The translations under genes were made by a program, and so were the position numbers. The notes below the pieces were generated by a model, which saw only the letters and a list, made by a program, of their open reading frames with translations, had not been told where the DNA came from and made no database searches. Shown here in pieces: positions 7,336 through 61,185 of a stretch of 64,000 nt of DNA (position 1 is its first letter; every line of letters begins with the position of its first letter). The DNA comes from Oligoflexia bacterium (GTDB taxonomy: Bacteria > Bdellovibrionota > Bdellovibrionia > JABDDW01). The stretch is taken from NCBI GenBank assembly GCA_016715815.1, contig JADJXN010000014.1:171767-235766 (forward strand), in the 5' to 3' direction.

Positions 7336-8136
7336 AATAGAGAAAAACATTTTAATACTATCTTTTATAAAATGCACTTTGGAATGTTTTGAGTTAATCC
7401 ATTGAACAGGCATTGATTTAACTTTAAAACCTAATTTTTTAGCCCTTAATAAAATTTCCACATCAAAAGCAAAATCATAAGTTTTTAAATTTTCAAACAA
7501 GAGCTTTACTGATTGTTTTTTAAACATTTTAAACCCGCACTGAGTATCCTTAATGCCCTTTAAAACTAATAGTTGAACTAAGAAATTAAAAAACTCCCCT
7601 GCCTTTTGGCGAAAATAATTTTGTCTTTTTATAATTTTACTTTTTATATTTTTTCTATCCCCAATGAGAAGATCAAAGCTTGGGTCAGCCTGGGCTTCAG
7701 CTAAAAAATTAACCACTTCCACAAGAGGGGTGGATAAATCTACGTCCATATAAAACACATATTCGCCAATTGCATTAAGCATCCCAGTTTTTACCGCATA
7801 GCCTTTACCTAAGTGCACATTGTTATAAATAAGTTTAATGTTTGAGCAATCATCAATGGCAGCTTTTGCTACTTTAAAAGTGTCATCATTTGATTTTTCT
7901 ACAACTATCAGGGCTTCCCACCCACTGCCAAAGCGAGAAAAAAAACTTTTTAAATCTAAAATGCATTGTTTAATGCGCGACTGCTCGTTATAGGCGGGGA
8001 TAACGATTGAAAGTAGTGGGGTAACCATGACAGAATTGTTAGCTATGAAGTCACTTATGTCATTAGAAAAAGTTGATATTAAACTTATACTTATACTCTT
8101 GGTTGGTTTTTTGTTTCGAATATTGCTTATAAACAT
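7309..8136 (-). CDS. family 2 glycosyltransferase (polyprenyl-phosphate sugar synthase-like)
   Basis: SIVIPAYNE and YMDVDLS motifs typical of GT2 DPM1/ArnC-like enzymes. Confidence 0.75.
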   Translation of the reverse strand: MFISNIRNKKPTKSISISLISTFSNDISDFIANNSVMVTPLLSIVIPAYNEQSRIKQCILDLKSFFSRFGSGWEALIVVEKSNDDTFKVAKAAIDDCSNIKLIYNNVHLGKGYAVKTGMLNAIGEYVFYMDVDLSTPLVEVVNFLAEAQADPSFDLLIGDRKNIKSKIIKRQNYFRQKAGEFFNFLVQLLVLKGIKDTQCGFKMFKKQSVKLLFENLKTYDFAFDVEILLRAKKLGFKVKSMPVQWINSKHSKVHFIKDSIKMFFSILRLYIRGV

Positions 8137-52160: not shown

Positions 52161-52823
52161 ATGCTAGATATTCAAACTTTATTAATGGAAGAGCTGGTCC
52201 AGTTTTTGGCTAATGGTTGCCAAAATGATGTTTTGCAAAGGCTGAGTAGTGGTTTTTTAGAACTTGGCTTTTCTAAAACAATCATTTTTCTTAAAACATC
52301 ATCTAGTAATGGTGAGTTAAAGCAAGTATTCCCTAATGAATTTGATTTTAAATTAAATTTTAAACCAAATTTAATTGAAAAAGAAAAAGAGCATTATTTT
52401 ATAGAAAAGCCTGCGGCATTTGGTGCAAACCAAGCTTTTGTTGTGATGCCTTTGAGTTGTAAAACCGCTTGCTTTGGCGCTTTAGTACTTCAGGCAGATG
52501 AAAAAACATTACAACGCTGGAGCGGAGATTATAAAAAAATTGGTTATGTATTTTCTTTATTTATGCAAAGTCTTGATTTAATTCAAAAGCAAAATTTAGC
52601 AGAGAATAAAAAGCTAAAAACCAAACTTTGCCTATTACATTTAAGTGATAAGCAAAGCACTATTGTAGAGCTATTATTGAATGGTAGGAGTAATAAGGAA
52701 ATTGCAAAATCTATTAACTTAACAGAGCAGGCAATTAAGTATCATGTTGGTAATATGCTTTCTAAATTCCAGTGTAAGAATAGAAAAGAGCTAAGATCAA
52801 AAATAAATGAGCTAATTGTTTAA
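52161..52823 (+). CDS. LuxR-family HTH transcriptional regulator with N-terminal putative ligand-binding domain
   Basis: C-terminal LuxR/GerE HTH: LSDKQSTIVELLLNGRSNKEIAKSINLTEQAIKYHVGNMLSKF. Confidence 0.7.
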   Translation: MLDIQTLLMEELVQFLANGCQNDVLQRLSSGFLELGFSKTIIFLKTSSSNGELKQVFPNEFDFKLNFKPNLIEKEKEHYFIEKPAAFGANQAFVVMPLSCKTACFGALVLQADEKTLQRWSGDYKKIGYVFSLFMQSLDLIQKQNLAENKKLKTKLCLLHLSDKQSTIVELLLNGRSNKEIAKSINLTEQAIKYHVGNMLSKFQCKNRKELRSKINELIV

Positions 52824-53203
52824 CCATTTCCTTCTTTGAGCTCACGCTCTTGAATTTCAAAGGCTTCAAGTAATTCTGTTGCTGTATTAAAATCAAATTT
52901 CTTAATAACACTTTTATAAAGTTTTTTATTATTCATGTATTGCTCTATAAGAATAAGTATTGAGGTGCGGTGGGGGTCAAAATTAAAAGTCAGTTTTGCT
53001 ACTCTTAAGGTTTCATAAACTAGTTCTTCAGTTTGAGGCTGTTTAGCCGCTTCTCTAATTAAATTAAGGTATTCATCATGTTGCTTTAGTTGTGTAGTTT
53101 GCTTTGTTATTTTTTTCATTTTTAAAATTAATGCAGGTGTAAGATCAACTTGAGCATTTGAAAAGTTAAACAAAAGTAAAATTGCTAAGAATATTTTTGT
53201 CAT
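52820..53203 (-). CDS. small secreted helical protein, translationally coupled to upstream gene
   Basis: Signal peptide; 4-nt start/stop overlap with the 53200..54222 gene. Confidence 0.5.
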   Translation of the reverse strand: MTKIFLAILLLFNFSNAQVDLTPALILKMKKITKQTTQLKQHDEYLNLIREAAKQPQTEELVYETLRVAKLTFNFDPHRTSILILIEQYMNNKKLYKSVIKKFDFNTATELLEAFEIQERELKEGNG

Positions 53204-54222
53204 ATATTTTCCTTATGTACCATAACCCCAATAAGCTCATAGTCATCGGTTTTTCTTTTTCGAGTTGATTGAATAATGGGGTTGGGTGTAACTAAATCAC
53301 TCACGTAGCGAATTTGGTTATTTCTCTCAACTTTAATTTCAGTATGTACCACCTTTGTTGGTCGGCCATTAACATATTTTCTATAGAGCAATATGGCCCC
53401 ATTGGGAGCATCATCTATGTTTTTAATTTTAGGGTAAAGATTGATAAAACCTCTGTTTTCAAAATGCTCTACTTTGGCATAGCTATGCTCACTACTATGC
53501 CAACTATTTTTTTCTTCTTGTGTGACAAACTCGCTGCAAAATAAAACATCCTTAACATGTTTATAGCAGTAACCCTTGGATTTACTTAAATCAGCATAGT
53601 TTGGCTTATGCAGTCTTTTTGCTTCACTACTTAGTGATCTTTCTAAACAAGGAATAATTTTATCTAATTTTTTTGTTTTTTTATGCTTTTGAACTACCTT
53701 TTCTGGTTGAGCTTTTGGGATAGTAGTTTTATTAATTATTTCTGGCTTATTAATATGGCTTTCAATTCTTGCTGTAGCCTCAACAATGGGGGCAGCTTGC
53801 TTTTGCGAAATCACTTGAGTGGATTTTGTGCAATTTGTACAGCTTTCTATGGGTTTGAGCTCTTCAAAATATGTTTGTTTTTGCAAAGTAAGATCAGTGT
53901 ATAGTTTTACAAAATGATTTTGTTTGGCATCTTTAACATTATGGTAAACCCAAGCCACTTTACCTTTTAAATTTCTATTTGGAGATGTGGTTATTTTTAA
54001 TTTAATACCATAGTTGCCAGAGTTTAATTGAACATAATCTAAAATTTCACCCTCAGTCTCTGCAGGCAACGGGCTCTCTTTTAAAACAACACTTGAGTCT
54101 ATAAAATTGGCTTCAGAACGTGCATTAACAGGGTTTAATATTTTAACGTAAGTAGGGCGCACACTTGCTTGTGAAAAATTACTCGCGAAAAAAAATAATA
54201 TTAAAAACACCAAGTGTTTCAC
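53200..54222 (-). CDS. secreted protein with C-terminal Cys/His hydrolase-like region (putative peptidase/amidase)
   Basis: Signal peptide; C-terminal GYCYKHVKDV ... VVHTEIKV resembling Cys-His catalytic arrangement; unverified. Confidence 0.5.
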   Translation of the reverse strand: MKHLVFLILFFFASNFSQASVRPTYVKILNPVNARSEANFIDSSVVLKESPLPAETEGEILDYVQLNSGNYGIKLKITTSPNRNLKGKVAWVYHNVKDAKQNHFVKLYTDLTLQKQTYFEELKPIESCTNCTKSTQVISQKQAAPIVEATARIESHINKPEIINKTTIPKAQPEKVVQKHKKTKKLDKIIPCLERSLSSEAKRLHKPNYADLSKSKGYCYKHVKDVLFCSEFVTQEEKNSWHSSEHSYAKVEHFENRGFINLYPKIKNIDDAPNGAILLYRKYVNGRPTKVVHTEIKVERNNQIRYVSDLVTPNPIIQSTRKRKTDDYELIGVMVHKENI

Positions 54223-54266
54223 AGATTTACTATCGGTTTAAAATAATAAATCTGTGAGTAGTTTAA

Positions 54267-55712
54267 CTACTTAATTACTATGCTTATTGTTTGTGGTTGG
54301 TTTTGCATTACAACTTTGGTCATGCCTACTCGACCATCAGCAAGTTTTGCTGAAACAATATACTCACCTGGGTCTAGTACTTTAAAAAACACACCAAAGT
54401 TATTTGTCCTAAGTGGCATTTCTTTTTTAAGATGCTTTATTTTATCCACTGCAATGGCTGCCACAAGTGGTGCTCTTTGAAGCTGGTTGAGGCCGTCCAC
54501 AACTTGCACCTTTAGCATGTTTTTGCCTGAACGATTCATAAAATATGTCCATGCCTTGCGGTGTTTTAACAAAGTGGGCTCTCTTAAGCTATAAGAAGGG
54601 TGAAAGTCTTGGTTAACTTCAAAAGTGTAGCTGAGTGTTCCGTAAGCTGCGTACATAAAATCCATGGAGCTTCCGTCAACGCCGTAAAGAATTTCCCAGG
54701 GTGCGCCGGGCTTGTAGTTACCACGGCCATCATCTCTAGGGAGAAGGCTTGCTAACTCATTAGCTACTTTTTTAATTAAAGCATTTTCAGAAGTTAAATC
54801 TCCGTAGCAGCCGTATGGGTGTAAAACAAGCTCACTATAAGAATGGTAAGATAAATATGCTGTTGGGCGCACGTGGTCTGTTAATGTATTAAAAGCTTTT
54901 ACTTCTGGTTCACTGGCAGCAGTGGCTCCTCGGTAAGTGTCTGAGCCTTGGCTGCCTGATGAGCCATTGCACTCCCCCCAGCGGTAATTATAATTTCTGT
55001 TTATATCTACCCCATGCACTCCATCAAGAGAGGAGCGAGCGTTTTTTCTCCACATGCTATTTGATGTCCAAACAATGTTTGAGCCATCAGGGTTAAGCAT
55101 GGGTATAACCCAAATATTCCAATTTTTTAAAATTTCTTGTCCCTGCGGGGTTTGTGCATTTTTTAAAACGGTTTCAGCAACATCAAAGACAACCTCAGGG
55201 GTCATGATTTCGCGGGCATGGTGAAGGCCATCAATGATAATGGTTGGTTTTTGAAAATACTCTGCAGAGTTATAATCTAAAGTAGTGGAAACAAGCATGG
55301 CTAAAACCGGGCGGCCCTGGTTTGATTTACCAAGTTCAATCACACGACTTAGTTGTGGATAAGCTTGATTTAGTGCACTTAATTTTGAAGTTAATGTTGT
55401 TGGGTTTAAAAAACGCTGATCAGGAGAAAAATCTGTCCTAACCATTTGGCCATCAAAGCCTTTTTCTTTTAAAAAGCTAAGGCCCTTTGTGGTGGTAATA
55501 ACCTCAATGGTTCTTTGAGCTTCGTTAATACCGGCGATATCAAACTCATACTTATTAAGCATGTTAACAACGTTTCTAACCTGCGTGGCTGTAACGTTAT
55601 TTGGAACCTTAATTTTATATCTTATTTGTGGTTCATTTTTTAACTGAGGCGCAAGTGCCGTTTGAGCGTTAAAGCCTAAAAGTAAAACCAAAAGAATGAT
55701 AATATTTTTCAT
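54267..55712 (-). CDS. secreted M14-family zinc carboxypeptidase
   Basis: Zn-binding motif GLHHAREIMTPE (HxxE) and downstream His region. Confidence 0.8.
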   Translation of the reverse strand: MKNIIILLVLLLGFNAQTALAPQLKNEPQIRYKIKVPNNVTATQVRNVVNMLNKYEFDIAGINEAQRTIEVITTTKGLSFLKEKGFDGQMVRTDFSPDQRFLNPTTLTSKLSALNQAYPQLSRVIELGKSNQGRPVLAMLVSTTLDYNSAEYFQKPTIIIDGLHHAREIMTPEVVFDVAETVLKNAQTPQGQEILKNWNIWVIPMLNPDGSNIVWTSNSMWRKNARSSLDGVHGVDINRNYNYRWGECNGSSGSQGSDTYRGATAASEPEVKAFNTLTDHVRPTAYLSYHSYSELVLHPYGCYGDLTSENALIKKVANELASLLPRDDGRGNYKPGAPWEILYGVDGSSMDFMYAAYGTLSYTFEVNQDFHPSYSLREPTLLKHRKAWTYFMNRSGKNMLKVQVVDGLNQLQRAPLVAAIAVDKIKHLKKEMPLRTNNFGVFFKVLDPGEYIVSAKLADGRVGMTKVVMQNQPQTISIVIK

Positions 55713-55788
55713 GTTGTTCCCCCTAATATTAAGTCTAGGTAGGTATTAAAACATTGGTCAAGCATTGTTTTAAGACTGCCGATAATTT

Positions 55789-56235
55789 ATGTGCATGCAG
55801 AGCTTTCGTGTTGAAATAAAAAATCGTTGTTGGGTTGAGGCTAGCTTTAAGCTTGATGAGTATAAAAACGTGCTATCAGTTGATTGGCATGCGCAAGGGA
55901 GTTTTGATTTAATTCAAGAATGTGAGAAATTCTTTAAACTTGCACTTCAAAAGAACCTGGAGAGTTTAAGTGTGGTGGGTGTTAAAACAGCACAACTCAT
56001 GCTTAATGAGCTTTTAGATAAAGCTAAAGGCGTTTATAAGAGTGTAGATGATATAGAAATTTGCCATTGTAGAAAAATAAACAGGTCTGAAATAATAGAT
56101 GCTATTTTATTAGGCGCCCACACGCCTGAGAAGGTCAAAAAATGGACCACCGCAAGTTCGGGTTGCGGAACTTGCCGCTCTGATGTAGATAAGCTCATAA
56201 ATGAGCTTATCAAAAGAGATGTTAGCAAAAGTTAA
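55789..56235 (+). CDS. BFD-like [2Fe-2S]-binding domain protein
   Basis: CHCRKINRSEI ... SGCGTCR four-Cys BFD pattern. Confidence 0.55.
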   Translation: MCMQSFRVEIKNRCWVEASFKLDEYKNVLSVDWHAQGSFDLIQECEKFFKLALQKNLESLSVVGVKTAQLMLNELLDKAKGVYKSVDDIEICHCRKINRSEIIDAILLGAHTPEKVKKWTTASSGCGTCRSDVDKLINELIKRDVSKS

Positions 56236-56515
56236 CGAAATTATTGAATCAGACATTCGCCCCATGCTTTTAGGCGATGGTGGGGATATCCAAGTTATAG
56301 ATTTACGTGATGACGGCTTTTTAGAACTACGTGTGTCTGGCCAATGTGTGCACTGTGCTTCTTTACCACTTACCATGACCTTTGCTATTGAGGAGCGCTT
56401 AAAGACAGCATTTCCTGAAATAAAAGGTGTGGTGCAGTTAAAAGATTTGGATGATGAAGGTGAGCTTGTTGGTGAGCAGGCATTGGACGATGTTGTGGGG
56501 AAGACGTGTCATTAA
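56201..56515 (+). CDS. Nfu/NifU C-terminal-domain Fe-S scaffold protein (start may be ATG 56219)
   Basis: LLGDGGDIQVIDL and CVHCAS (CxxC) Nfu motifs. Confidence 0.75.
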   Translation: MSLSKEMLAKVNEIIESDIRPMLLGDGGDIQVIDLRDDGFLELRVSGQCVHCASLPLTMTFAIEERLKTAFPEIKGVVQLKDLDDEGELVGEQALDDVVGKTCH

Positions 56516-56844
56516 AAGAGCAAATTTTAAATTTAAAAAAATCAAAGTCTGAAGAAGATAGAAAAAAGTGTGTCGAGCTTCTTAAAACCTATTTATTCCT
56601 TTCTGTAAACTTCACTGTTGTTATTTTTTAAAGATTATTTTCTTGACGTGTTTTTTGGTTTACAGGTTTTGATTCCAGACGATCTTAAATACTAAAAATA
56701 TCAAAAAAACTTATCTGAATCTGTTTTTAACTCTTAAATCTCAAATTAATTCGTTTAATAAGATATTAATTTCTCATCTCAGATGTTCTCAAAATGAGCA
56801 GTGAAAAAACCATGTTATAAAAGCCTTAAACTAAGGGGGTCTTA

Positions 56845-57165
56845 ATGCAAAAAGAATTTTTAGAACTTCACCAAAAAGCCATCAACATTGCCCAAAGCTT
56901 TCACAAAGCAGAATCAGATCTGATTGATATACTTCAAAAAATAGATCAACAAAAAATATTTTTAAAACTAGGTTTTGCCAGCCTTTTTGACTATGCGTTG
57001 AAAGCGTTAAAGCTCTCAGAAGCTAATAGTTCAAACTTTATAACTGTTGCCAGAAAATCAAAAACAATCCCTGAGCTAAAAGAAGCTATTAAGGAAGGTA
57101 GACTTAGTGTCTCAAAGGCAAGAAAGATAACTCCTGTGTTAACCCCAGAAAACAAAGACGTTTAG
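56845..57165 (+). CDS. DUF222-like N-terminal segment of HNH endonuclease (ends at in-frame TAG)
   Basis: Helical segment resembling DUF222; same frame as the following HNH ORF, separated by a single TAG. Confidence 0.5.
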   Translation: MQKEFLELHQKAINIAQSFHKAESDLIDILQKIDQQKIFLKLGFASLFDYALKALKLSEANSSNFITVARKSKTIPELKEAIKEGRLSVSKARKITPVLTPENKDV

Positions 57166-57171
57166 TTAAAT

Positions 57172-57723
57172 ATGGCTGAGGTGTTGCCAAAGGCAAAGCT
57201 AGAAAAGGAGATTGCCAAGGTTTTACCTGAAAAGGCGGTTCAAGAAAGAACAAGCTATGTCAGCCCTGAAAGAATCAAACTTACAGTTGGCTTATCTGAA
57301 AGAGCCCATGAGCTACTTAAAAGGGTTCAAGATTTGGAGTGTCAAAGAAGAAGAGCCTCTATTAATTTTGAGCAAACAATTGAGGCGGCTTTGGAGTTAT
57401 ACATAAAAAAGCTTGATCCAGTGGAGAAAGCAAAAGCACGGTTTGAATCTGAAGTTAAAACCACTGACGCGGCTGCTTCTGTCCCGGGACACATAGTGGG
57501 TTTGTATGGGTTTACAAGGGTGAGGTTGCCTCAAAGGTTAAAACACCAAATTTTTCTAAGAGACAAGGGGGAGTGTCAGCATAGAGATCAAAGTGGAAAT
57601 AAGTGCCACAACTCTAGATGGACTGAGGTTCATCACAAAACTCCGGTGAGCCATGGTGGGCAAAATGAATTAAATAACCTCACTACACTTTGTTTCGGGC
57701 ACCATAAACTTATGCATTTATAA
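57172..57723 (+). CDS. HNH endonuclease domain protein
   Basis: HNH motif CQHRDQSGNKCHN ... EVHHKTPVSHGGQNELNNLTTLCFGHH. Confidence 0.75.
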   Translation: MAEVLPKAKLEKEIAKVLPEKAVQERTSYVSPERIKLTVGLSERAHELLKRVQDLECQRRRASINFEQTIEAALELYIKKLDPVEKAKARFESEVKTTDAAASVPGHIVGLYGFTRVRLPQRLKHQIFLRDKGECQHRDQSGNKCHNSRWTEVHHKTPVSHGGQNELNNLTTLCFGHHKLMHL

Positions 57724-57987
57724 TTTTTTAGATTTCAAAAACTCTTCAAGAAGTGGGGCAATCTTTCGTCTGCAGCTCCCACCACAAGGGCCAACACCGG
57801 CAGTGGTTTTGTCATAAATTTCATTAAGTGTACAAGCACCTTCTTGCATGGCTTTTACAATTTCATCTTTAGGGATTTGATTGCAAAAGCAAATAATTTC
57901 TTTTTGAGATTTTTTATTCATTTTACTAAACGTCTTATTCTGTGAAGTGTTTGCTTGGATGCCTTGCTTCTTACTTTGATCACTCAT
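57718..57987 (-). CDS. BFD-like [2Fe-2S]-binding protein
   Basis: CFCNQIPKDEI ... GPCGGSCR four-Cys BFD pattern. Confidence 0.7.
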   Translation of the reverse strand: MSDQSKKQGIQANTSQNKTFSKMNKKSQKEIICFCNQIPKDEIVKAMQEGACTLNEIYDKTTAGVGPCGGSCRRKIAPLLEEFLKSKKL

Positions 57988-58961
57988 GAACCAAAAATTT
58001 TCTCAAAAGCACCCAAGACTTTTGCTTTTATTTCAACATAAGTGCCGTTCATTGTAGTGCCTGATGCAAACTCATGCCCACCACCACCAAGGCTTTGTGC
58101 AAGTTGGCTCACGCTATACATGCCCTTACTTCTAAAACTAATTTTAAACTGGCTAGGAGCATCTTCTCTAAACAATGCTGCGGCTTCAATGCTTTCAATA
58201 TCCATCACCATATCAATAATGTCTCGGGTCTCATCAGCCTCAAGGCCTAAGCGGTCCAAATCTTTTTTCTGAACGCGGACAATGGCCAATCTTCCATCAA
58301 ACTCATAATCAATATTAGTTAAAATATGGGCCAAAAATTTTAATTTTACAGGAGAGTGATTTCCAAAAAGATGACGATGCACTTTTTGAGCATCAATCTG
58401 ATGTTTTAAAAGCTCTGCCGCAATAAGATGCGGCGTGGGGCTGTTACGAACATATTTAAAATAATTAGTATCAAAAATAATGCTTGTATATAAAGGCATT
58501 GCAATTTGGCTGTCAAAGTCAACACGCAAAGCCTTAATAAGCTCAAAAACTATTTGGCCTGTGGAACTAGCATTTACGTCAATAATATTTTTTTCTGGAT
58601 CAAGGGGATGGCGCTTTAATGCAGAATGATGGTCCACAAAACAAATATTTTTTGAATGGGTTTTAAAAGAATTCCACAGCTCAAGTAAAAGCTCAGGATC
58701 ATTGGTATCAAAAATTAAAACAAGATCAACTCCTTCAAGAGAAGAGCGCAAAGTATTGGGTGTTTCTAAAATACCGTTTTCATCTAAAAAAAGATATTTT
58801 CTAGGAAGCCGGTCCGGGTTTACTATGCGAACTCTTTTGCCTATCTTCTTTAATGCCCAGTAAAATGAAAATTGGCAACCAAGGCCATCCCCATCAGGCT
58901 GGGTGTGGGTGCTTAGCACTATGTTTTGACTAGTCTTAATTAAATCAACAACATGTTTCAT
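57984..58961 (-). CDS. nrnA: DHH/DHHA1 phosphoesterase (NrnA-like nanoRNase/pAp phosphatase)
   Basis: HTQPDGDGLG, FDTND, VDHH motifs; C-terminal GGGH. Confidence 0.8.
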   Translation of the reverse strand: MKHVVDLIKTSQNIVLSTHTQPDGDGLGCQFSFYWALKKIGKRVRIVNPDRLPRKYLFLDENGILETPNTLRSSLEGVDLVLIFDTNDPELLLELWNSFKTHSKNICFVDHHSALKRHPLDPEKNIIDVNASSTGQIVFELIKALRVDFDSQIAMPLYTSIIFDTNYFKYVRNSPTPHLIAAELLKHQIDAQKVHRHLFGNHSPVKLKFLAHILTNIDYEFDGRLAIVRVQKKDLDRLGLEADETRDIIDMVMDIESIEAAALFREDAPSQFKISFRSKGMYSVSQLAQSLGGGGHEFASGTTMNGTYVEIKAKVLGAFEKIFGS

Positions 58962-59108
58962 GGATACTATTGTGGGGCTTAAATGCAGTGTTAATCAAGA
59001 AAAACCAAGTAAAACCAAAGGCTTAAAAGATTCTTTTTAAGATGTGCAAACCCTACTAAGTATGCTAAATTACTGCGTTTTAAAAAATAAAAAAGGAGTT
59101 TTAAAGTC

Positions 59109-59594
59109 ATGGCAGAAGATACAGTACCGATGACATTGGCAGGTAAAAAGAAGCTTGAGGAAGAACTAAAAAACCTACTTTCTGTAGAAAGACCACAGGT
59201 GATTAAAGCCATTGAAGTTGCAAGAGAACAGGGTGATTTAAGTGAGAACGCTGAGTATGATTCCGCAAAGGAGCGCCAGGCTTTTATTGAAGGCCGCATA
59301 CAAGAAATTAATTCCAAATTAGCAAGGGCTCAAGTGATTGACCCAGCAAAAATTAAAAGTGACAAAATTGTCTTTGGAGCAACTGTCGTGCTTGAAGATG
59401 CTGCAAGTGGAAATGGTAAAAAAATTAAATACCAAATTGTTGGAGTTGATGAGGCAGACGCGCAACACGGAAAAATTTCAATTAATTCCCCCATTGCAAG
59501 AGCGCTTATTGGAAAAGCTGAGGGCGAGATTGTTTCTGTAAATACCCCCGGTGGAATAAAAGAATTTGAAGTTTTAGAATTTTCATTTCAATAA
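59109..59594 (+). CDS. greA: transcription elongation factor GreA
   Basis: N-terminal coiled-coil with acidic tip (DLSENAEYDSAKERQ) and C-terminal FKBP-like domain. Confidence 0.9.
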   Translation: MAEDTVPMTLAGKKKLEEELKNLLSVERPQVIKAIEVAREQGDLSENAEYDSAKERQAFIEGRIQEINSKLARAQVIDPAKIKSDKIVFGATVVLEDAASGNGKKIKYQIVGVDEADAQHGKISINSPIARALIGKAEGEIVSVNTPGGIKEFEVLEFSFQ

Positions 59595-59600
59595 ATAAAA

Positions 59601-60413
59601 ATGGCAAAAAAATCTGGCTACCTACACGGCTATTCTAAAAAAGAGCAACAGCGACTTTACAAACAGGCCCGCTTTTTAGAAAAGTATGTTTATAACGGGG
59701 TTAATTTAAAAAAAAATAAAAACCTCATAGAAGTTGGTTGTGGTGTAGGGGCTCAAACAGAAATCCTTTTAGAACACTTCCCTAAATTAAAGATCACTTG
59801 TGTTGATGCATCATTTGAGCAACTAAAACAGGCAGAAAAACATCTCAAAAAACAAATCAAAAAAAATAAAGTTGATCTTAGTTTGCAAAATGCAATGCAA
59901 ATGGATTTTAAAAATAATACTTTTGACAGCTCCTTTTTATGTTGGTTTTTAGAGCATGTCCCAAACCCTGTTAAAGTGTTAAAAGAAGTTTACAGAGTCA
60001 TGAAAAAGGGTGGAGTTATTTATTGCACTGAGGTGAAGAACTCATCATTTTTTGTTGATCCCTATAGCCCCACCATTTTAAATTACTGGTTTCATTTTAA
60101 TGATGTTCAGTGGCTTATGGGTGGGGATCCTTTTTCTGGGGCAAAGCTTGGAAATTGGTTAAAAAGTGCAGGTTTTAAAAAAATTGAAACTAAAGTAGTT
60201 TCTTTGTTTTTAGATTCTAGAGATAAAAAAACAAGAGCTGCCTTTTTAAACGAATGGACGGCTCTCATGCTAAGTGGAGTGCCAGCCCTTTTAAAAGAAA
60301 AAAGAATCACGCATAGGCTTGTAAAAGAATTAAAAAGAGAAATTACCATACTTAAGAAAACAAAAAACAGTGTGTTTTACTTTGCCTTTGTACAGGCTAG
60401 GGCTGTTAAGTGA
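59601..60413 (+). CDS. class I SAM-dependent methyltransferase
   Basis: Motif I LIEVGCGVGAQT. Confidence 0.75.
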   Translation: MAKKSGYLHGYSKKEQQRLYKQARFLEKYVYNGVNLKKNKNLIEVGCGVGAQTEILLEHFPKLKITCVDASFEQLKQAEKHLKKQIKKNKVDLSLQNAMQMDFKNNTFDSSFLCWFLEHVPNPVKVLKEVYRVMKKGGVIYCTEVKNSSFFVDPYSPTILNYWFHFNDVQWLMGGDPFSGAKLGNWLKSAGFKKIETKVVSLFLDSRDKKTRAAFLNEWTALMLSGVPALLKEKRITHRLVKELKREITILKKTKNSVFYFAFVQARAVK

Positions 60414-60787
60414 GCCAGCTTTTATTGCTAAAAGAAGAACTCTTGCAAAGAGGGGATCTTGAGCTTGAGCTTGAAAAGATATTGCAAAAATTTTACACAG
60501 TAATGGCAAATGATTCCATGATTGGCTTTTTTTTTCAGGGAAAAGACCTAAACAAAATTGTTAATGGGCAAAAAGAGCTCTTACTAACAGCCATGGGGAT
60601 AAAACCTACTTACACAGGGCGCCCTGTAAACCAAGCCCACATGAATTTACCCCCCATACTTGAGGGGCATTTTAACAGACGCCTTGTAATTTTAGAGCAA
60701 ACCCTTAATGAATTTAAATTACGTAAAGATACTGTTCAGAATTGGATAGGGTTTGAAAAAAAATTTGCAAATGTTATAGTCAAATAA
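60410..60787 (+). CDS. truncated (2/2) haemoglobin-like protein
   Basis: FY...GFFF ... PTYTGRP ... QAHMNL ... HF pattern of truncated globins. Confidence 0.55.
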   Translation: MSQLLLLKEELLQRGDLELELEKILQKFYTVMANDSMIGFFFQGKDLNKIVNGQKELLLTAMGIKPTYTGRPVNQAHMNLPPILEGHFNRRLVILEQTLNEFKLRKDTVQNWIGFEKKFANVIVK

Positions 60788-60789
60788 GC

Positions 60790-61185
60790 ATGGAAAACCT
60801 GATTGAATATACCCAAAACTCTTATGATTTTAAAATAACTGTGAAGCCAGCTTATTTACCCGAAAAGTCTAGCCCAGAAGATAATAATTATTTTTTTATT
60901 TATAAAATAAAAATTAAAAATGAAAGTGCAAAACCTGCAAAGCTTATTTCCCGCCACTGGATTATTACAGATGGTAGGGGGCGTGTGGAGCAAGTAGAGG
61001 GTCCAGGTGTCGTGGGAGAGCAGCCAGTAATAGGTGCTGGTGAAGAGTTTGAGTATGTCAGTGCTTGCCCATTAAGCACTCCAACTGGTAATATGAGAGG
61101 TACATATACAATGCAGGCACTTGACGGTATTAAATTTAAAATAACAATACCGGTATTTTTCTTAAGAACAGAGGTTTATCACTAA
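60790..61185 (+). CDS. apaG: ApaG (DUF525) protein
   Basis: ISRHWIITDGRGRVEQVEGPGVVGEQP and GTYTM motifs. Confidence 0.8.
   Translation: MENLIEYTQNSYDFKITVKPAYLPEKSSPEDNNYFFIYKIKIKNESAKPAKLISRHWIITDGRGRVEQVEGPGVVGEQPVIGAGEEFEYVSACPLSTPTGNMRGTYTMQALDGIKFKITIPVFFLRTEVYH

What the first reader, a model, noticed from the sequence alone, without database searches (positions are those of the whole stretch)
56845..57723. DUF222-like + HNH endonuclease reading frame interrupted by a single in-frame TAG
ORFs 56845..57165 and 57172..57723 are in the same frame and separated only by TAG-TTA-AAT before the next ATG. The first resembles the helical N-terminal region that precedes HNH domains in single-chain DUF222-HNH endonucleases; the second has a complete HNH motif. 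It may be a recently inactivated gene, a sequencing error, two-piece expression, or stop-codon readthrough. About 330 bp of AT-rich non-coding DNA lies upstream, which is unusual in this dense window.
Basis: seen in the sequence. Interest (0 to 1): 0.45.

Follow-up and report, generated by a model that had tools for sequence, protein, structure and literature searches.

The report
Stop-codon-broken selfish HNH nuclease gene
A single amber stop codon replaces an invariant tryptophan in an otherwise intact DNA-binding HNH nuclease gene carried on a small inserted cassette in a Bdellovibrio-like bacterium, so it is most likely an ordinary, freshly killed copy of a multi-copy selfish gene.

Summary
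ORF A (56845-57165, 106 aa) and ORF B (57172-57723, 183 aa) share one frame and are separated only by TAG-TTA-AAT.

More than 100 homologues from Bdellovibrionota/Oligoflexia assemblies are single chains of about 265-390 aa spanning both ORFs. The TAG sits on a Trp that is invariant in all 103 aligned homologues, one of only 8 invariant columns. The change is therefore TGG to TAG, with the A at 57164. In a confident model the Trp lies inside a helix of a ParB/KorB-type DNA-binding domain, not in a linker.

Apart from the stop, the copy shows no decay: 1 deviation in 53 highly conserved columns, against a family median of 2. TAG is a genuine stop in this organism.

The gene and its 329-bp AT-rich leader form a cassette of about 1.2 kb inserted between nfu and bfd. 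Two related genomes have an empty site there (137-220 bp). The family is multi-copy, with up to 9 copies per assembly at varying sites, and about 8% of full-length copies are broken. One of those carries another lone TAG five codons upstream.

Best reading: a recent nonsense mutation. An assembly error or minority allele is not excluded, because no independent assembly covers the base. "DUF222" membership is below threshold. Interest is low.

The parts
56447..57733 (+). Inserted cassette (leader + nuclease gene), about 1.2-1.29 kb, between the conserved nfu and bfd genes
   Evidence: DNA similarity to the closest relative L075 (84% NrnA identity) covers window 54216-56446 and 57734-60420 but not the segment between them. 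Relatives L083/L084 and L085 have bfd and nfu only 220 and 137 bp apart with no nuclease gene.
56516..56844 (+). 329-bp AT-rich leader of the nuclease gene
   Evidence: It contains no ORF of note and is about 28% GC. It carries the two family-typical upstream motifs at family-typical distances. There is no RNA structure signal (z=+0.5) and no Rfam match.
56643..56654 (+). Distal conserved motif TTGACGTGTTTT (-35-like), 202 nt before the ATG
   Evidence: A TTGACnnnnTT motif lies 174-235 nt upstream of the ORF in 35 of 38 family loci examined, from many assemblies. The window segment matches JAKFYE01 copies at the equivalent position (blastn E 0.001). Its function as a promoter or operator is inferred, not shown.
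56813..56821 (+). Proximal extended -10-like element TGTTATAAA, preceded by AAAAAACCA
   Evidence: An AAAACCnRTGnTAnnn block about 25-40 nt before the start codon recurs across family loci from different genomes. The promoter role is inferred. The simple sigma-70 scan found nothing because there is no -35 box.
56845..57165 (+). ORF A: N-terminal 106 codons of the nuclease gene (long helix + ParB/KorB-type HTH), ending in the premature TAG
57163..57165 (+). Premature amber codon TAG. Ancestral TGG (Trp107), so the mutated base is A at 57164
   Evidence: The codon aligns with a Trp invariant in 103 of 103 homologues, one of 8 invariant columns. The nearest homologues have TGG there. The Trp lies in helix 104-113 of the model, in a block with pLDDT about 98.
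57172..57723 (+). ORF B: the remaining 183 codons (end of the DNA-binding domain, helical middle region, variable linker, HNH domain). NCBI annotates it on its own as 'HNH endonuclease'
   Evidence: P0001 is 100% identical. The Pfam HNH match covers residues 143-175. All invariant HNH and zinc residues are retained. No Shine-Dalgarno sequence precedes ATG 57172.
57598..57696 (+). HNH catalytic core (Pfam PF01844 match)
   Evidence: PDB sequence matches to McrA, IscB and Cas8-HNH cover the HNH region only.
57718..57723 (.). Palindromic TTATAA in which the nuclease gene's stop codon and the stop codon of convergent bfd overlap; right edge of the insert
57920..57936 (-). Inverted-repeat partner (16 of 17 nt) of 57155-57171, the 17-mer that contains the TAG
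   Evidence: pair I5. A pair this good arises in 4 of 300 Markov simulations of the 1.6-kb region. The partner lies in a 45-nt segment of the bfd 5' region that is absent from L075. Any link to the origin of the mutation is speculative.

Best explanation
This is one gene, not two. It encodes a single-chain nuclease of about 292 aa: an N-terminal ParB/KorB-type helix-turn-helix DNA-binding domain, a helical middle region, a variable linker and a C-terminal HNH (McrA-like) domain.

The gene, with its own AT-rich promoter-bearing leader, is a cassette of about 1.2 kb inserted between the convergent housekeeping genes nfu and bfd of an Oligoflexia/Bdellovibrionota bacterium. It belongs to a large chromosomal family that is multi-copy and variable in location. 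That behaviour resembles a selfish or homing nuclease gene, much as the REP13E12/DUF222-HNH repeats do in mycobacteria.

In this copy a single G-to-A transition (TGG to TAG, base 57164) turned the invariant Trp107 inside the DNA-binding domain into an amber stop. Translation from the good ribosome-binding site therefore ends after 106 residues, and the full-length nuclease is no longer made. Everything else is still intact, so the inactivation is recent.

Shown: the single-chain homology, the identity of the lost residue, the position inside a fold, the lack of other decay, the use of TAG as a real stop, the empty sites, the multi-copy distribution and the other broken copies.

Inferred: that the stop is real rather than an assembly error, that it abolishes function, and that the family is self-mobile.
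For: - Homologues are single chains. 173 hits were found, and those listed are 263-387 aa covering 84-100% of the joined sequence. A profile search finds 2,797 cluster representatives at E<=1e-30, and the top 150 all span profile positions about 4-293 in one protein.
- The TAG aligns with a Trp invariant in 28 of 28 and 103 of 103 homologues. Homologue DNA has TGG at that codon.
- In the AlphaFold model of homologue P0003 (pLDDT 93.3) the Trp sits in helix 104-113, where pLDDT is about 98. The only flexible linker is around residues 206-224. The N-terminal domain matches ParB, KorB and Spo0J.
- The window copy deviates at 1 of 53 columns conserved at 90% or more. The family median is 2.
- TAG ends 4 of 45 long ORFs in the window. 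The TAG of the M14 peptidase gene aligns exactly with the TAA of its orthologue. The only tRNA in the window is Arg-TCG.
- Other copies are broken too. L040 has a lone in-frame TAG, L070 a frameshift, and L056 and L057 have lost the HNH part.
- The site is empty in L083/L084 and L085. L075 has a different island in the same slot.
- 70 loci fall in 26 assemblies, up to 9 per assembly, and many sit at contig ends. Paralogues share DNA that extends into the leader.
- Published work on Peredibacter reports 10-13 HNH endonucleases per genome, some at strain-specific sites (PMC13147790).
Against: - The base itself could not be verified. The Logan assembly of run SRR11674018 matches the window at 100% on both sides (52654-56901 and 57593-61092) but breaks inside the gene, so 57163-57165 is covered by one assembly only. 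No closely related allele exists in the databases searched.
- Complete lack of secondary decay is also what an artefact, or a still-functional split gene, would show.
- An ATG lies 6 nt after the stop, so the C-terminal piece could be made by reinitiation.
- A second family member has an amber codon only five codons away. That is mildly unexpected for random hits, at roughly 4% by position.
Confidence: 0.62

Rival explanations
1. Assembly or consensus error, or a minority allele. The organism's real gene has TGG and is intact, and the A at 57164 comes from low coverage, a read error or strain heterogeneity in the metagenome bin.
For: - The window is from a metagenome-assembled genome (P0001 source).
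- The independent Logan assembly of the same run is fragmented into 3.5-4.2 kb contigs and has a 691-bp gap exactly over the middle of this gene. That fits low coverage or local heterogeneity.
- The gene shows no other decay.
- A single transition accounts for the stop.
Against: - The two assemblies agree at 7,748 of 7,748 flanking bases, so the base-level error rate is low.
- Real single-lesion copies exist in the family. One is a lone TAG in L040, from an assembly not labelled as a MAG.
- Broken copies (about 5 of 62) are more frequent than the expected rate of stop-creating assembly errors.
Confidence: 0.2
2. Functional two-piece expression. Ribosomes terminate at TAG and reinitiate at ATG 57172, giving a 106-aa HTH fragment and a 183-aa HNH fragment that work together or separately. 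The HTH fragment might act as a repressor, or the HNH fragment as a less specific nuclease.
For: - ATG 57172 is only 6 nt after the stop and in the same frame.
- Short-range termination-reinitiation is established in bacteria (general knowledge).
- Both parts keep all conserved residues.
- NCBI's pipeline calls ORF B a gene.
Against: - No homologue is split here or anywhere else as a rule.
- The break removes an invariant Trp and cuts a helix within the DNA-binding domain rather than the real linker at about 206-224.
- There is no Shine-Dalgarno sequence before ATG 57172.
- That Met position is simply a common Leu/Met variant in the family.
Confidence: 0.1
3. Programmed or tolerated amber readthrough. 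A suppressor tRNA or leaky termination gives a low level of full-length nuclease, perhaps keeping a toxic enzyme scarce.
For: - A second family member (L040) carries a lone TAG five codons upstream in an otherwise intact gene.
- Both lesions are amber codons.
Against: - TAG is used as an ordinary stop in this organism and matches the orthologue's stop position.
- There is no suppressor tRNA in the window.
- 60 or so other copies and thousands of homologues have a plain Trp or Glu codon at these positions.
- TGG and GAG can each reach only amber or opal (TGG), or amber (GAG), by a single step. The shared codon type is therefore weak evidence.
Confidence: 0.04

Closest known systems
REP13E12 / DUF222-HNH repeat genes of Mycobacterium tuberculosis and other Actinobacteria (Pfam PF02720 + PF01844)
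   Same: - The protein is a single chain with a helical, HTH-containing N-terminal region followed by a C-terminal HNH domain.
- Copies are chromosomal and multi-copy, at variable positions.
- It is treated as a repetitive or mobile-like element of unknown mechanism (PMC10589994, citing Gordon et al. 1999).
- ORF A aligns weakly to DUF222 positions 22-89.
   Different: - Similarity is below Pfam's threshold (14.9 against 24.4 bits). Only 2 of 103 family members reach E<0.01.
- The proteins here are shorter, about 290 aa.
- The family is confined to Bdellovibrionota/Oligoflexia assemblies.
- tblastn against the plasmid and phage record collections found no relatives.
Multi-copy HNH endonucleases reported in Peredibacter and other Bdellovibrio-like organisms
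   Same: The phylum is the same. The paper reports 10-13 HNH endonuclease genes per genome, some at strain-specific sites (PMC13147790). This matches the up to 9 copies per assembly and the varying contexts seen here.
   Different: The paper gives no domain analysis, cassette structure or mechanism. Whether its genes belong to this exact family was not tested here.
Free-standing HNH homing endonuclease genes (for example phage I-HmuI-type or mob genes) and McrA-type HNH restriction nucleases
   Same: - It is a small stand-alone gene with its own promoter, inserted between host genes.
- Presence/absence polymorphism with an empty site is seen.
   Different: - The DNA-binding module is ParB/KorB-like, not the NUMOD or AP2 type (general knowledge), nor McrA's own N-terminal domain.
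- No relatives were found in phage, plasmid or IMG/VR collections.
- Cleavage specificity and homing are untested.
- PADLOC shows only generic HNH hits.
ParB/KorB/Noc HTH DNA-binding domain
   Different: There is no ParB N-terminal CTPase domain and no dimerisation domain. Here the HTH domain is fused to a nuclease.

Membership tests
HNH endonuclease (Pfam PF01844) | Match to the HNH profile above the gathering score | tested here: met
   ORF B scores 28 bits against a 21.4-bit cut-off, E 2.4e-6. 102 of 103 family members match.
HNH endonuclease (Pfam PF01844) | Catalytic His-His / Asn / His motif and Cys/His zinc ligands present | tested here: met
   R239, D240, C244, C254, H263 and H264 are invariant. 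N278, C283, H286, H287 and H291 are near-invariant. All are retained in the window copy.
HNH endonuclease (Pfam PF01844) | Metal-dependent DNA cleavage | not testable with these tools
   This needs a biochemical assay. The full-length protein is not encoded intact in this copy.
DUF222 (Pfam PF02720) / REP13E12-type proteins | Match to the DUF222 profile above the gathering score (24.4 bits) | tested here: not met
   ORF A scores 14.9 bits, E 0.016, over profile positions 22-89 of 306. The joined protein does not list DUF222 at all. Only 2 of 103 family members reach E<0.01.
DUF222 (Pfam PF02720) / REP13E12-type proteins | N-terminal helical domain followed by a C-terminal HNH domain in one chain; multi-copy in the chromosome | tested here: met
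   Architecture. Copy number and variable sites. This is an analogy of organisation, not proof of homology.
ParB/KorB-type HTH DNA-binding domain | Fold match of the HTH and flanking helices to solved ParB/KorB/Spo0J/Noc DNA-binding domains | tested here: met
   [not shown]
ParB/KorB-type HTH DNA-binding domain | Sequence match to Pfam HTH_ParB above threshold | tested here: inconclusive
   9 of 103 members hit PF17762, with best E 0.0012. The window's ORF A does not.
Homing / self-mobile nuclease gene | Presence/absence polymorphism at a conserved site, with an empty site in relatives | tested here: met
   L083/L084 and L085 have bfd and nfu 220 and 137 bp apart with no insert. The window has a 1.2-kb insert and L075 a 3.3-kb island there.
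Homing / self-mobile nuclease gene | The nuclease cleaves the empty target site and is copied in by repair | not testable with these tools
   No conserved target sequence, target-site duplication or terminal inverted repeat was found in the window. Insertion contexts differ between loci.
Programmed stop-codon readthrough / recoding | The stop is conserved at the same codon among homologues | tested here: not met
   103 of 103 homologues have Trp at this codon. Only one other locus (L040) has a TAG, and it is at a different codon.
Programmed stop-codon readthrough / recoding | Suppressor tRNA, or reassignment of TAG, in the organism | tested here: inconclusive
   TAG acts as a normal stop and there is no suppressor tRNA in the 64-kb window. 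The rest of the genome was not available.

The most novel reading that the evidence does not exclude
The family may be an undescribed kind of small mobile cassette in predatory Bdellovibrionota. It would consist of a unit of about 1.2 kb: a conserved bipartite upstream control region (a TTGAC motif about 200 nt upstream plus an extended -10 element) and a ParB-HTH-HNH nuclease. Such a unit would insert itself at the ends of convergent genes. The recurrent lone amber codons at residues 102-107 would then reflect either a regulated low-level readthrough switch for a toxic nuclease or a templated (inverted-repeat-driven) mutational hotspot, rather than random decay.
Probability: 0.07. Interest if true: 0.6.

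Novelty: new member of a known kind. Interest (0 to 1): 0.2.

Why it matters
As it stands this is mainly an annotation point. The database entry that calls the 183-aa ORF B an 'HNH endonuclease' describes the tail of a broken gene, and it should be marked as a pseudogene or checked against reads.

The wider context is mildly useful. It documents, with an empty site and copy-number data, that Bdellovibrionota carry a large, uncharacterised family of ParB-HTH-HNH nuclease cassettes that behave like selfish elements. It also gives a concrete, testable locus for asking how such HNH genes move and how hosts silence them.

Tried and rejected
- **Structured RNA or riboswitch in the 329-bp leader:** rejected for this copy. 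There is no Rfam hit at gathering score or at E<=1. The fold energy is no better than shuffles (z=+0.5).
- **Whole-leader sequence homology:** an nhmmer profile built from 35 family leaders gives no significant hit in the window (best on-target E 5.7). Only two short, position-conserved motifs are claimed.
- **Canonical sigma-70 promoter or terminator:** the consensus scan found nothing on the + strand.
- **Two-gene module with the small convergent downstream ORF:** the 89-aa bfd here and the 78-aa ORF next to P0007 are unrelated.
- **Second copy in the window:** none.
- **Phage, plasmid or viral origin:** no tblastn hits in the phage or plasmid collections and none in IMG/VR.
- **Defence-system membership:** PADLOC shows only generic HNH-domain hits.
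- **Transposon-like ends:** no terminal inverted repeats or target-site duplications flank the insert. The REP-like palindrome that flanks copies in another genome is absent from the window.
- **Independent confirmation of the TAG:**
  - The exact-pattern scan of JGI metagenomes found nothing.
  - Exact-protein look-ups of ORF A, ORF B and Nfu found nothing.
  - The Logan contigs recovered through the neighbouring genes stop short of the TAG on both sides.
- **Coordinate error:** one search dropped the start codon of a minus-strand gene. It was repeated correctly.
  - The afdb50 fold library was unavailable.

Full report
**1. The observation**

The sequence and ORF table confirm the description. 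ORF A runs from 56845 to 57165 (106 aa). An AAGGGGG ribosome-binding site lies 5 nt before its ATG, and it ends with TAG at 57163-57165.

After TTA AAT, ORF B starts at ATG 57172 in the same frame and runs to TAA at 57721-57723 (183 aa). ORF B has a Pfam HNH match above threshold (E 2.4e-6). ORF A matches DUF222 only below threshold (E 0.016, 14.9 bits against a 24.4-bit cut-off).

Upstream lie 329 bp (56516-56844) with no ORF of note, at about 28% GC against 36.6% for the window.

**2. One gene or two**

The joined sequence was searched against 5.8 billion proteins and gave 173 hits.

- The only 100% hit is the 183-aa ORF B on its own. NCBI annotates it as 'HNH endonuclease' on a 332-kb contig of an Oligoflexia MAG.
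- Every other listed hit is a single protein of 263-387 aa. Nearly all cover 84-100% of the joined query (three cover 65-68%), at 38-57% identity.
- A profile search of 1.84 billion cluster representatives finds 2,797 relatives at E<=1e-30. The best 150 all span profile positions about 4-293 in one chain.

In alignments of 28 and of 103 homologues, the TAG falls on a tryptophan that is invariant. It is one of only eight invariant columns; most of the others are the Arg-Asp, Cys and His-His positions of the HNH domain. The nearest homologues have TGG at that codon.

The lesion is therefore a single G-to-A transition at 57164.

**3. Where the stop falls in the protein**

The joined window protein could not be submitted for structure prediction. 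I modelled full-length homologue P0003 instead (56% identical), using the 103-sequence alignment. The model has mean pLDDT 93.3.

- Trp107 sits in helix 104-113, in a block with pLDDT of about 98.
- The only flexible segment is around residues 206-224, just before the HNH domain.

The stop therefore cuts a folded domain, not a linker.

Pfam scans of all 103 members give HNH in 102, HTH_ParB in 9 and DUF222 in only 2. 'DUF222-like' is thus a remote resemblance of organisation. 'ParB-type HTH + HNH' is the better description.

**4. Whether TAG is a real stop here**

- TAG ends 4 of 45 long ORFs in the window (TAA 31, TGA 10).
- The TAG of the M14 peptidase gene lines up exactly with the TAA of its orthologue in a related genome.
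- The only tRNA in the window is Arg-TCG.

Nothing suggests reassignment. The rest of the genome was not available.

**5. State of decay**

Apart from the stop, the window copy deviates from the family at 1 of 53 columns conserved at 90% or more (S166C). The family median is 2. All catalytic and zinc-binding residues are present. The inactivation is therefore very recent, or else not real.

**6. Genomic context: an inserted cassette**

Neighbouring genes were used to find related genomes.

| Relative | NrnA identity | Arrangement at the bfd-nfu slot |
|---|---|---|
| L085 | 68% | greA-nrnA-bfd directly facing nfu, 137-bp spacer, no nuclease gene |
| L083/L084 | 62% | same arrangement, 220-bp spacer, no nuclease gene |
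| L075/L076 | 84% | 3.3-kb island with four genes, including a distant HNH protein (26% identical) in the opposite orientation |

- DNA similarity between the window and L075 covers 54216-56446 and 57734-60420 but not the segment between them. The leader plus nuclease gene (about 56447-57733) is therefore an insertion into a variable slot.
- The window's Nfu has a 15-residue C-terminal tail that L075 lacks. This tail is probably read into the insert (inference).
- At the other edge, the nuclease and bfd stop codons overlap in a palindromic TTATAA.

**7. The family**

A scan of one genome per species returned 70 loci in 26 assemblies. Almost all are Bdellovibrionota/Oligoflexia, with up to 9 copies per assembly, and many lie at contig ends.

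- Contexts differ. One copy sits inside the dcw cluster between ftsI and murE.
- Paralogues within one genome share 70-86% DNA identity, and this extends 100-300 bp upstream of the ATG.
- Two short motifs recur across genomes. One is TTGACnnnnTT, 174-235 nt upstream, in 35 of 38 loci; in the window it is at 56643-56654, position -202. The other is an AAAACCnRTGnTAnnn block resembling an extended -10 promoter, about 25-40 nt upstream; in the window this is TGTTATAAA at 56813-56821.
- The leader is therefore best read as the cassette's own control region. This is an inference; no transcription data exist.
- It is not a structured RNA in this copy, and a whole-leader profile is not significant in the window.
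- No relatives occur in phage, plasmid or IMG/VR collections. PADLOC and PHROGs recognise only the generic HNH domain.
- A 2026 paper on Peredibacter notes 10-13 HNH endonucleases per genome, some at strain-specific sites (PMC13147790).
- The REP13E12/DUF222/HNH repeats of M. tuberculosis are the classic analogue (PMC10589994).

**8. Broken copies are part of the family's biology**

About 62 loci are long enough to judge.

- L040 has a single in-frame TAG (GAG to TAG), five codons before the Trp, in an otherwise intact gene.
- L070 has one frameshift.
- L056 and L057 have lost the HNH part.

With the window copy, about 8% are defective, and most carry a single lesion. This is what one expects for young pseudogenes of a dispensable, possibly harmful, nuclease.

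**9. Whether the TAG could be an artefact**

I tried to find independent sequence for the base.

- Logan contigs from run SRR11674018 are 100% identical to window 52654-56901 and 57593-61092. Neither covers the 691 bp that include the TAG.
- Exact-protein and exact-DNA look-ups found nothing else.
- The perfect agreement over 7.7 kb argues for a low error rate. The break inside the gene leaves room for low coverage or strain heterogeneity.

I put the artefact or minority-allele reading at about 0.2.

**10. Other rivals**

*Reinitiation at ATG 57172.* This is mechanically plausible because the ATG lies 6 nt after the stop. However, there is no Shine-Dalgarno sequence, the split cuts a helix and removes an invariant residue, and that Met is an ordinary Leu/Met variant in the family. 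A selected two-piece enzyme is unlikely, at about 0.1.

*Programmed readthrough.* This has only the L040 coincidence in its favour, at about 0.04.

**11. An unexplained detail**

The 17-mer containing the TAG (57155-57171, AAGACGTTTAGTTAAAT) has a 16-of-17 inverted copy at 57920-57936, in the 5' region of bfd.

- A pair this good arises in only 4 of 300 simulations of the 1.6-kb region.
- The partner lies in a 45-nt segment absent from the L075 orthologue.
- With TGG the match would be 15 of 17, so the mutation improves the palindrome. That is what a template-switch ('quasi-palindrome') mutation would do.

This was noticed after the fact and is offered only as a hypothesis for the origin of the G-to-A change.

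**12. Verdict**

It is most likely an ordinary, recent nonsense mutation in one copy of a multi-copy, selfish-looking ParB-HTH-HNH nuclease cassette.

It is a new, broken member of a known kind of element. Its main practical consequence is an annotation correction. Interest is low, at 0.2. The family itself, with its conserved upstream architecture and clear empty site, is a modestly attractive system for studying how HNH genes spread in predatory bacteria.

Noticed in passing
window 57155-57171 and 57920-57936: A 17-nt inverted repeat (16 of 17 matches) has one arm that contains the premature TAG. The other arm lies in a 45-nt segment of the bfd 5' region that is absent from the closest relative. 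A pair this good arises in about 1.3% of simulations. The G-to-A change improves the match, which suggests a template-switch origin.
   Followed up: partly
L040:5286-5288 (Bdellovibrionota bacterium FG-2): Another family member carries a single in-frame TAG (GAG to TAG), only five codons upstream of the position hit in the window, in an otherwise intact gene. This may be coincidence (roughly 4% by position) or a hotspot.
   Followed up: partly
L075:4082-7395 versus window 56447-57733; empty sites at L083:7205-7426 and L085:7199-7337: The bfd-nfu intergenic slot is a variable hotspot. It is empty in two relatives, holds the 1.2-kb cassette in the window, and holds a 3.3-kb four-gene island with a distant (26% identical) HNH gene in the opposite orientation in the closest relative.
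   Followed up: yes
L025, L028, L033, L034, L036, L041, L050, L051, L056 (assembly JAKFYE01), also L012 and L062: In one Bdellovibrionales MAG the cassettes are flanked by a perfect REP-like palindrome, ACCTGTCGCGCGACAGGT. It appears upstream as TTACCTGTCGCGCGACAGGTGA and downstream as its reverse complement. Tandem hairpin repeats (AACTAAAAGGTGCCTACCACCTTTTG) also occur. The palindrome is absent from the window.
   Followed up: partly
L001/L002:5400-7094: A 53%-identical family member (P0007), with a 600-bp upstream gap, sits on the opposite strand inside the otherwise conserved dcw cell-division cluster, between ftsI and murE. The same metagenome's contig L083 has the empty bfd-nfu site.
   Followed up: no
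about 174-235 nt upstream of the ORF in 35 of 38 family loci; window 56643-56654: A TTGACnnnnTT motif lies at a conserved distance of about 200 nt from the start codon across many genomes. It is often followed 14-15 nt later by TAAAnT. It could be a second promoter, an operator for the protein's own HTH domain, or a recognition site.
   Followed up: partly
window 57718-57723: The stop codons of the convergent nuclease gene and bfd overlap in the palindrome TTATAA, so there is no intergenic DNA or terminator between them.
   Followed up: no
window 56455-56515: The Nfu protein here has a C-terminal tail of about 15 residues (…LDDEGELVGEQALDDVVGKTCH) that the orthologue in L075 lacks. It is probably created by reading into the inserted DNA.
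   Followed up: no
L045 (WWE3 MAG), L059 (Aenigmatarchaeota MAG), L071 (Cloacimonadota MAG), L072 (UBP17): A few family loci sit on contigs binned to unrelated phyla, including an archaeon. This points to mis-binning of Bdellovibrionota contigs or to horizontal transfer.
   Followed up: no
window 57172-57723 (P0001): The public annotation lists only the 183-aa C-terminal fragment, as 'HNH endonuclease'. ORF A is not in the protein databases searched, and the locus is apparently not flagged as a pseudogene.
   Followed up: partly
window 56901/56902 and 57592/57593: The Logan assembly of run SRR11674018 breaks at both of these points, leaving the middle 691 bp of the nuclease gene unassembled. 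This could reflect low coverage, a close paralogue or strain variation in the sample.
   Followed up: no
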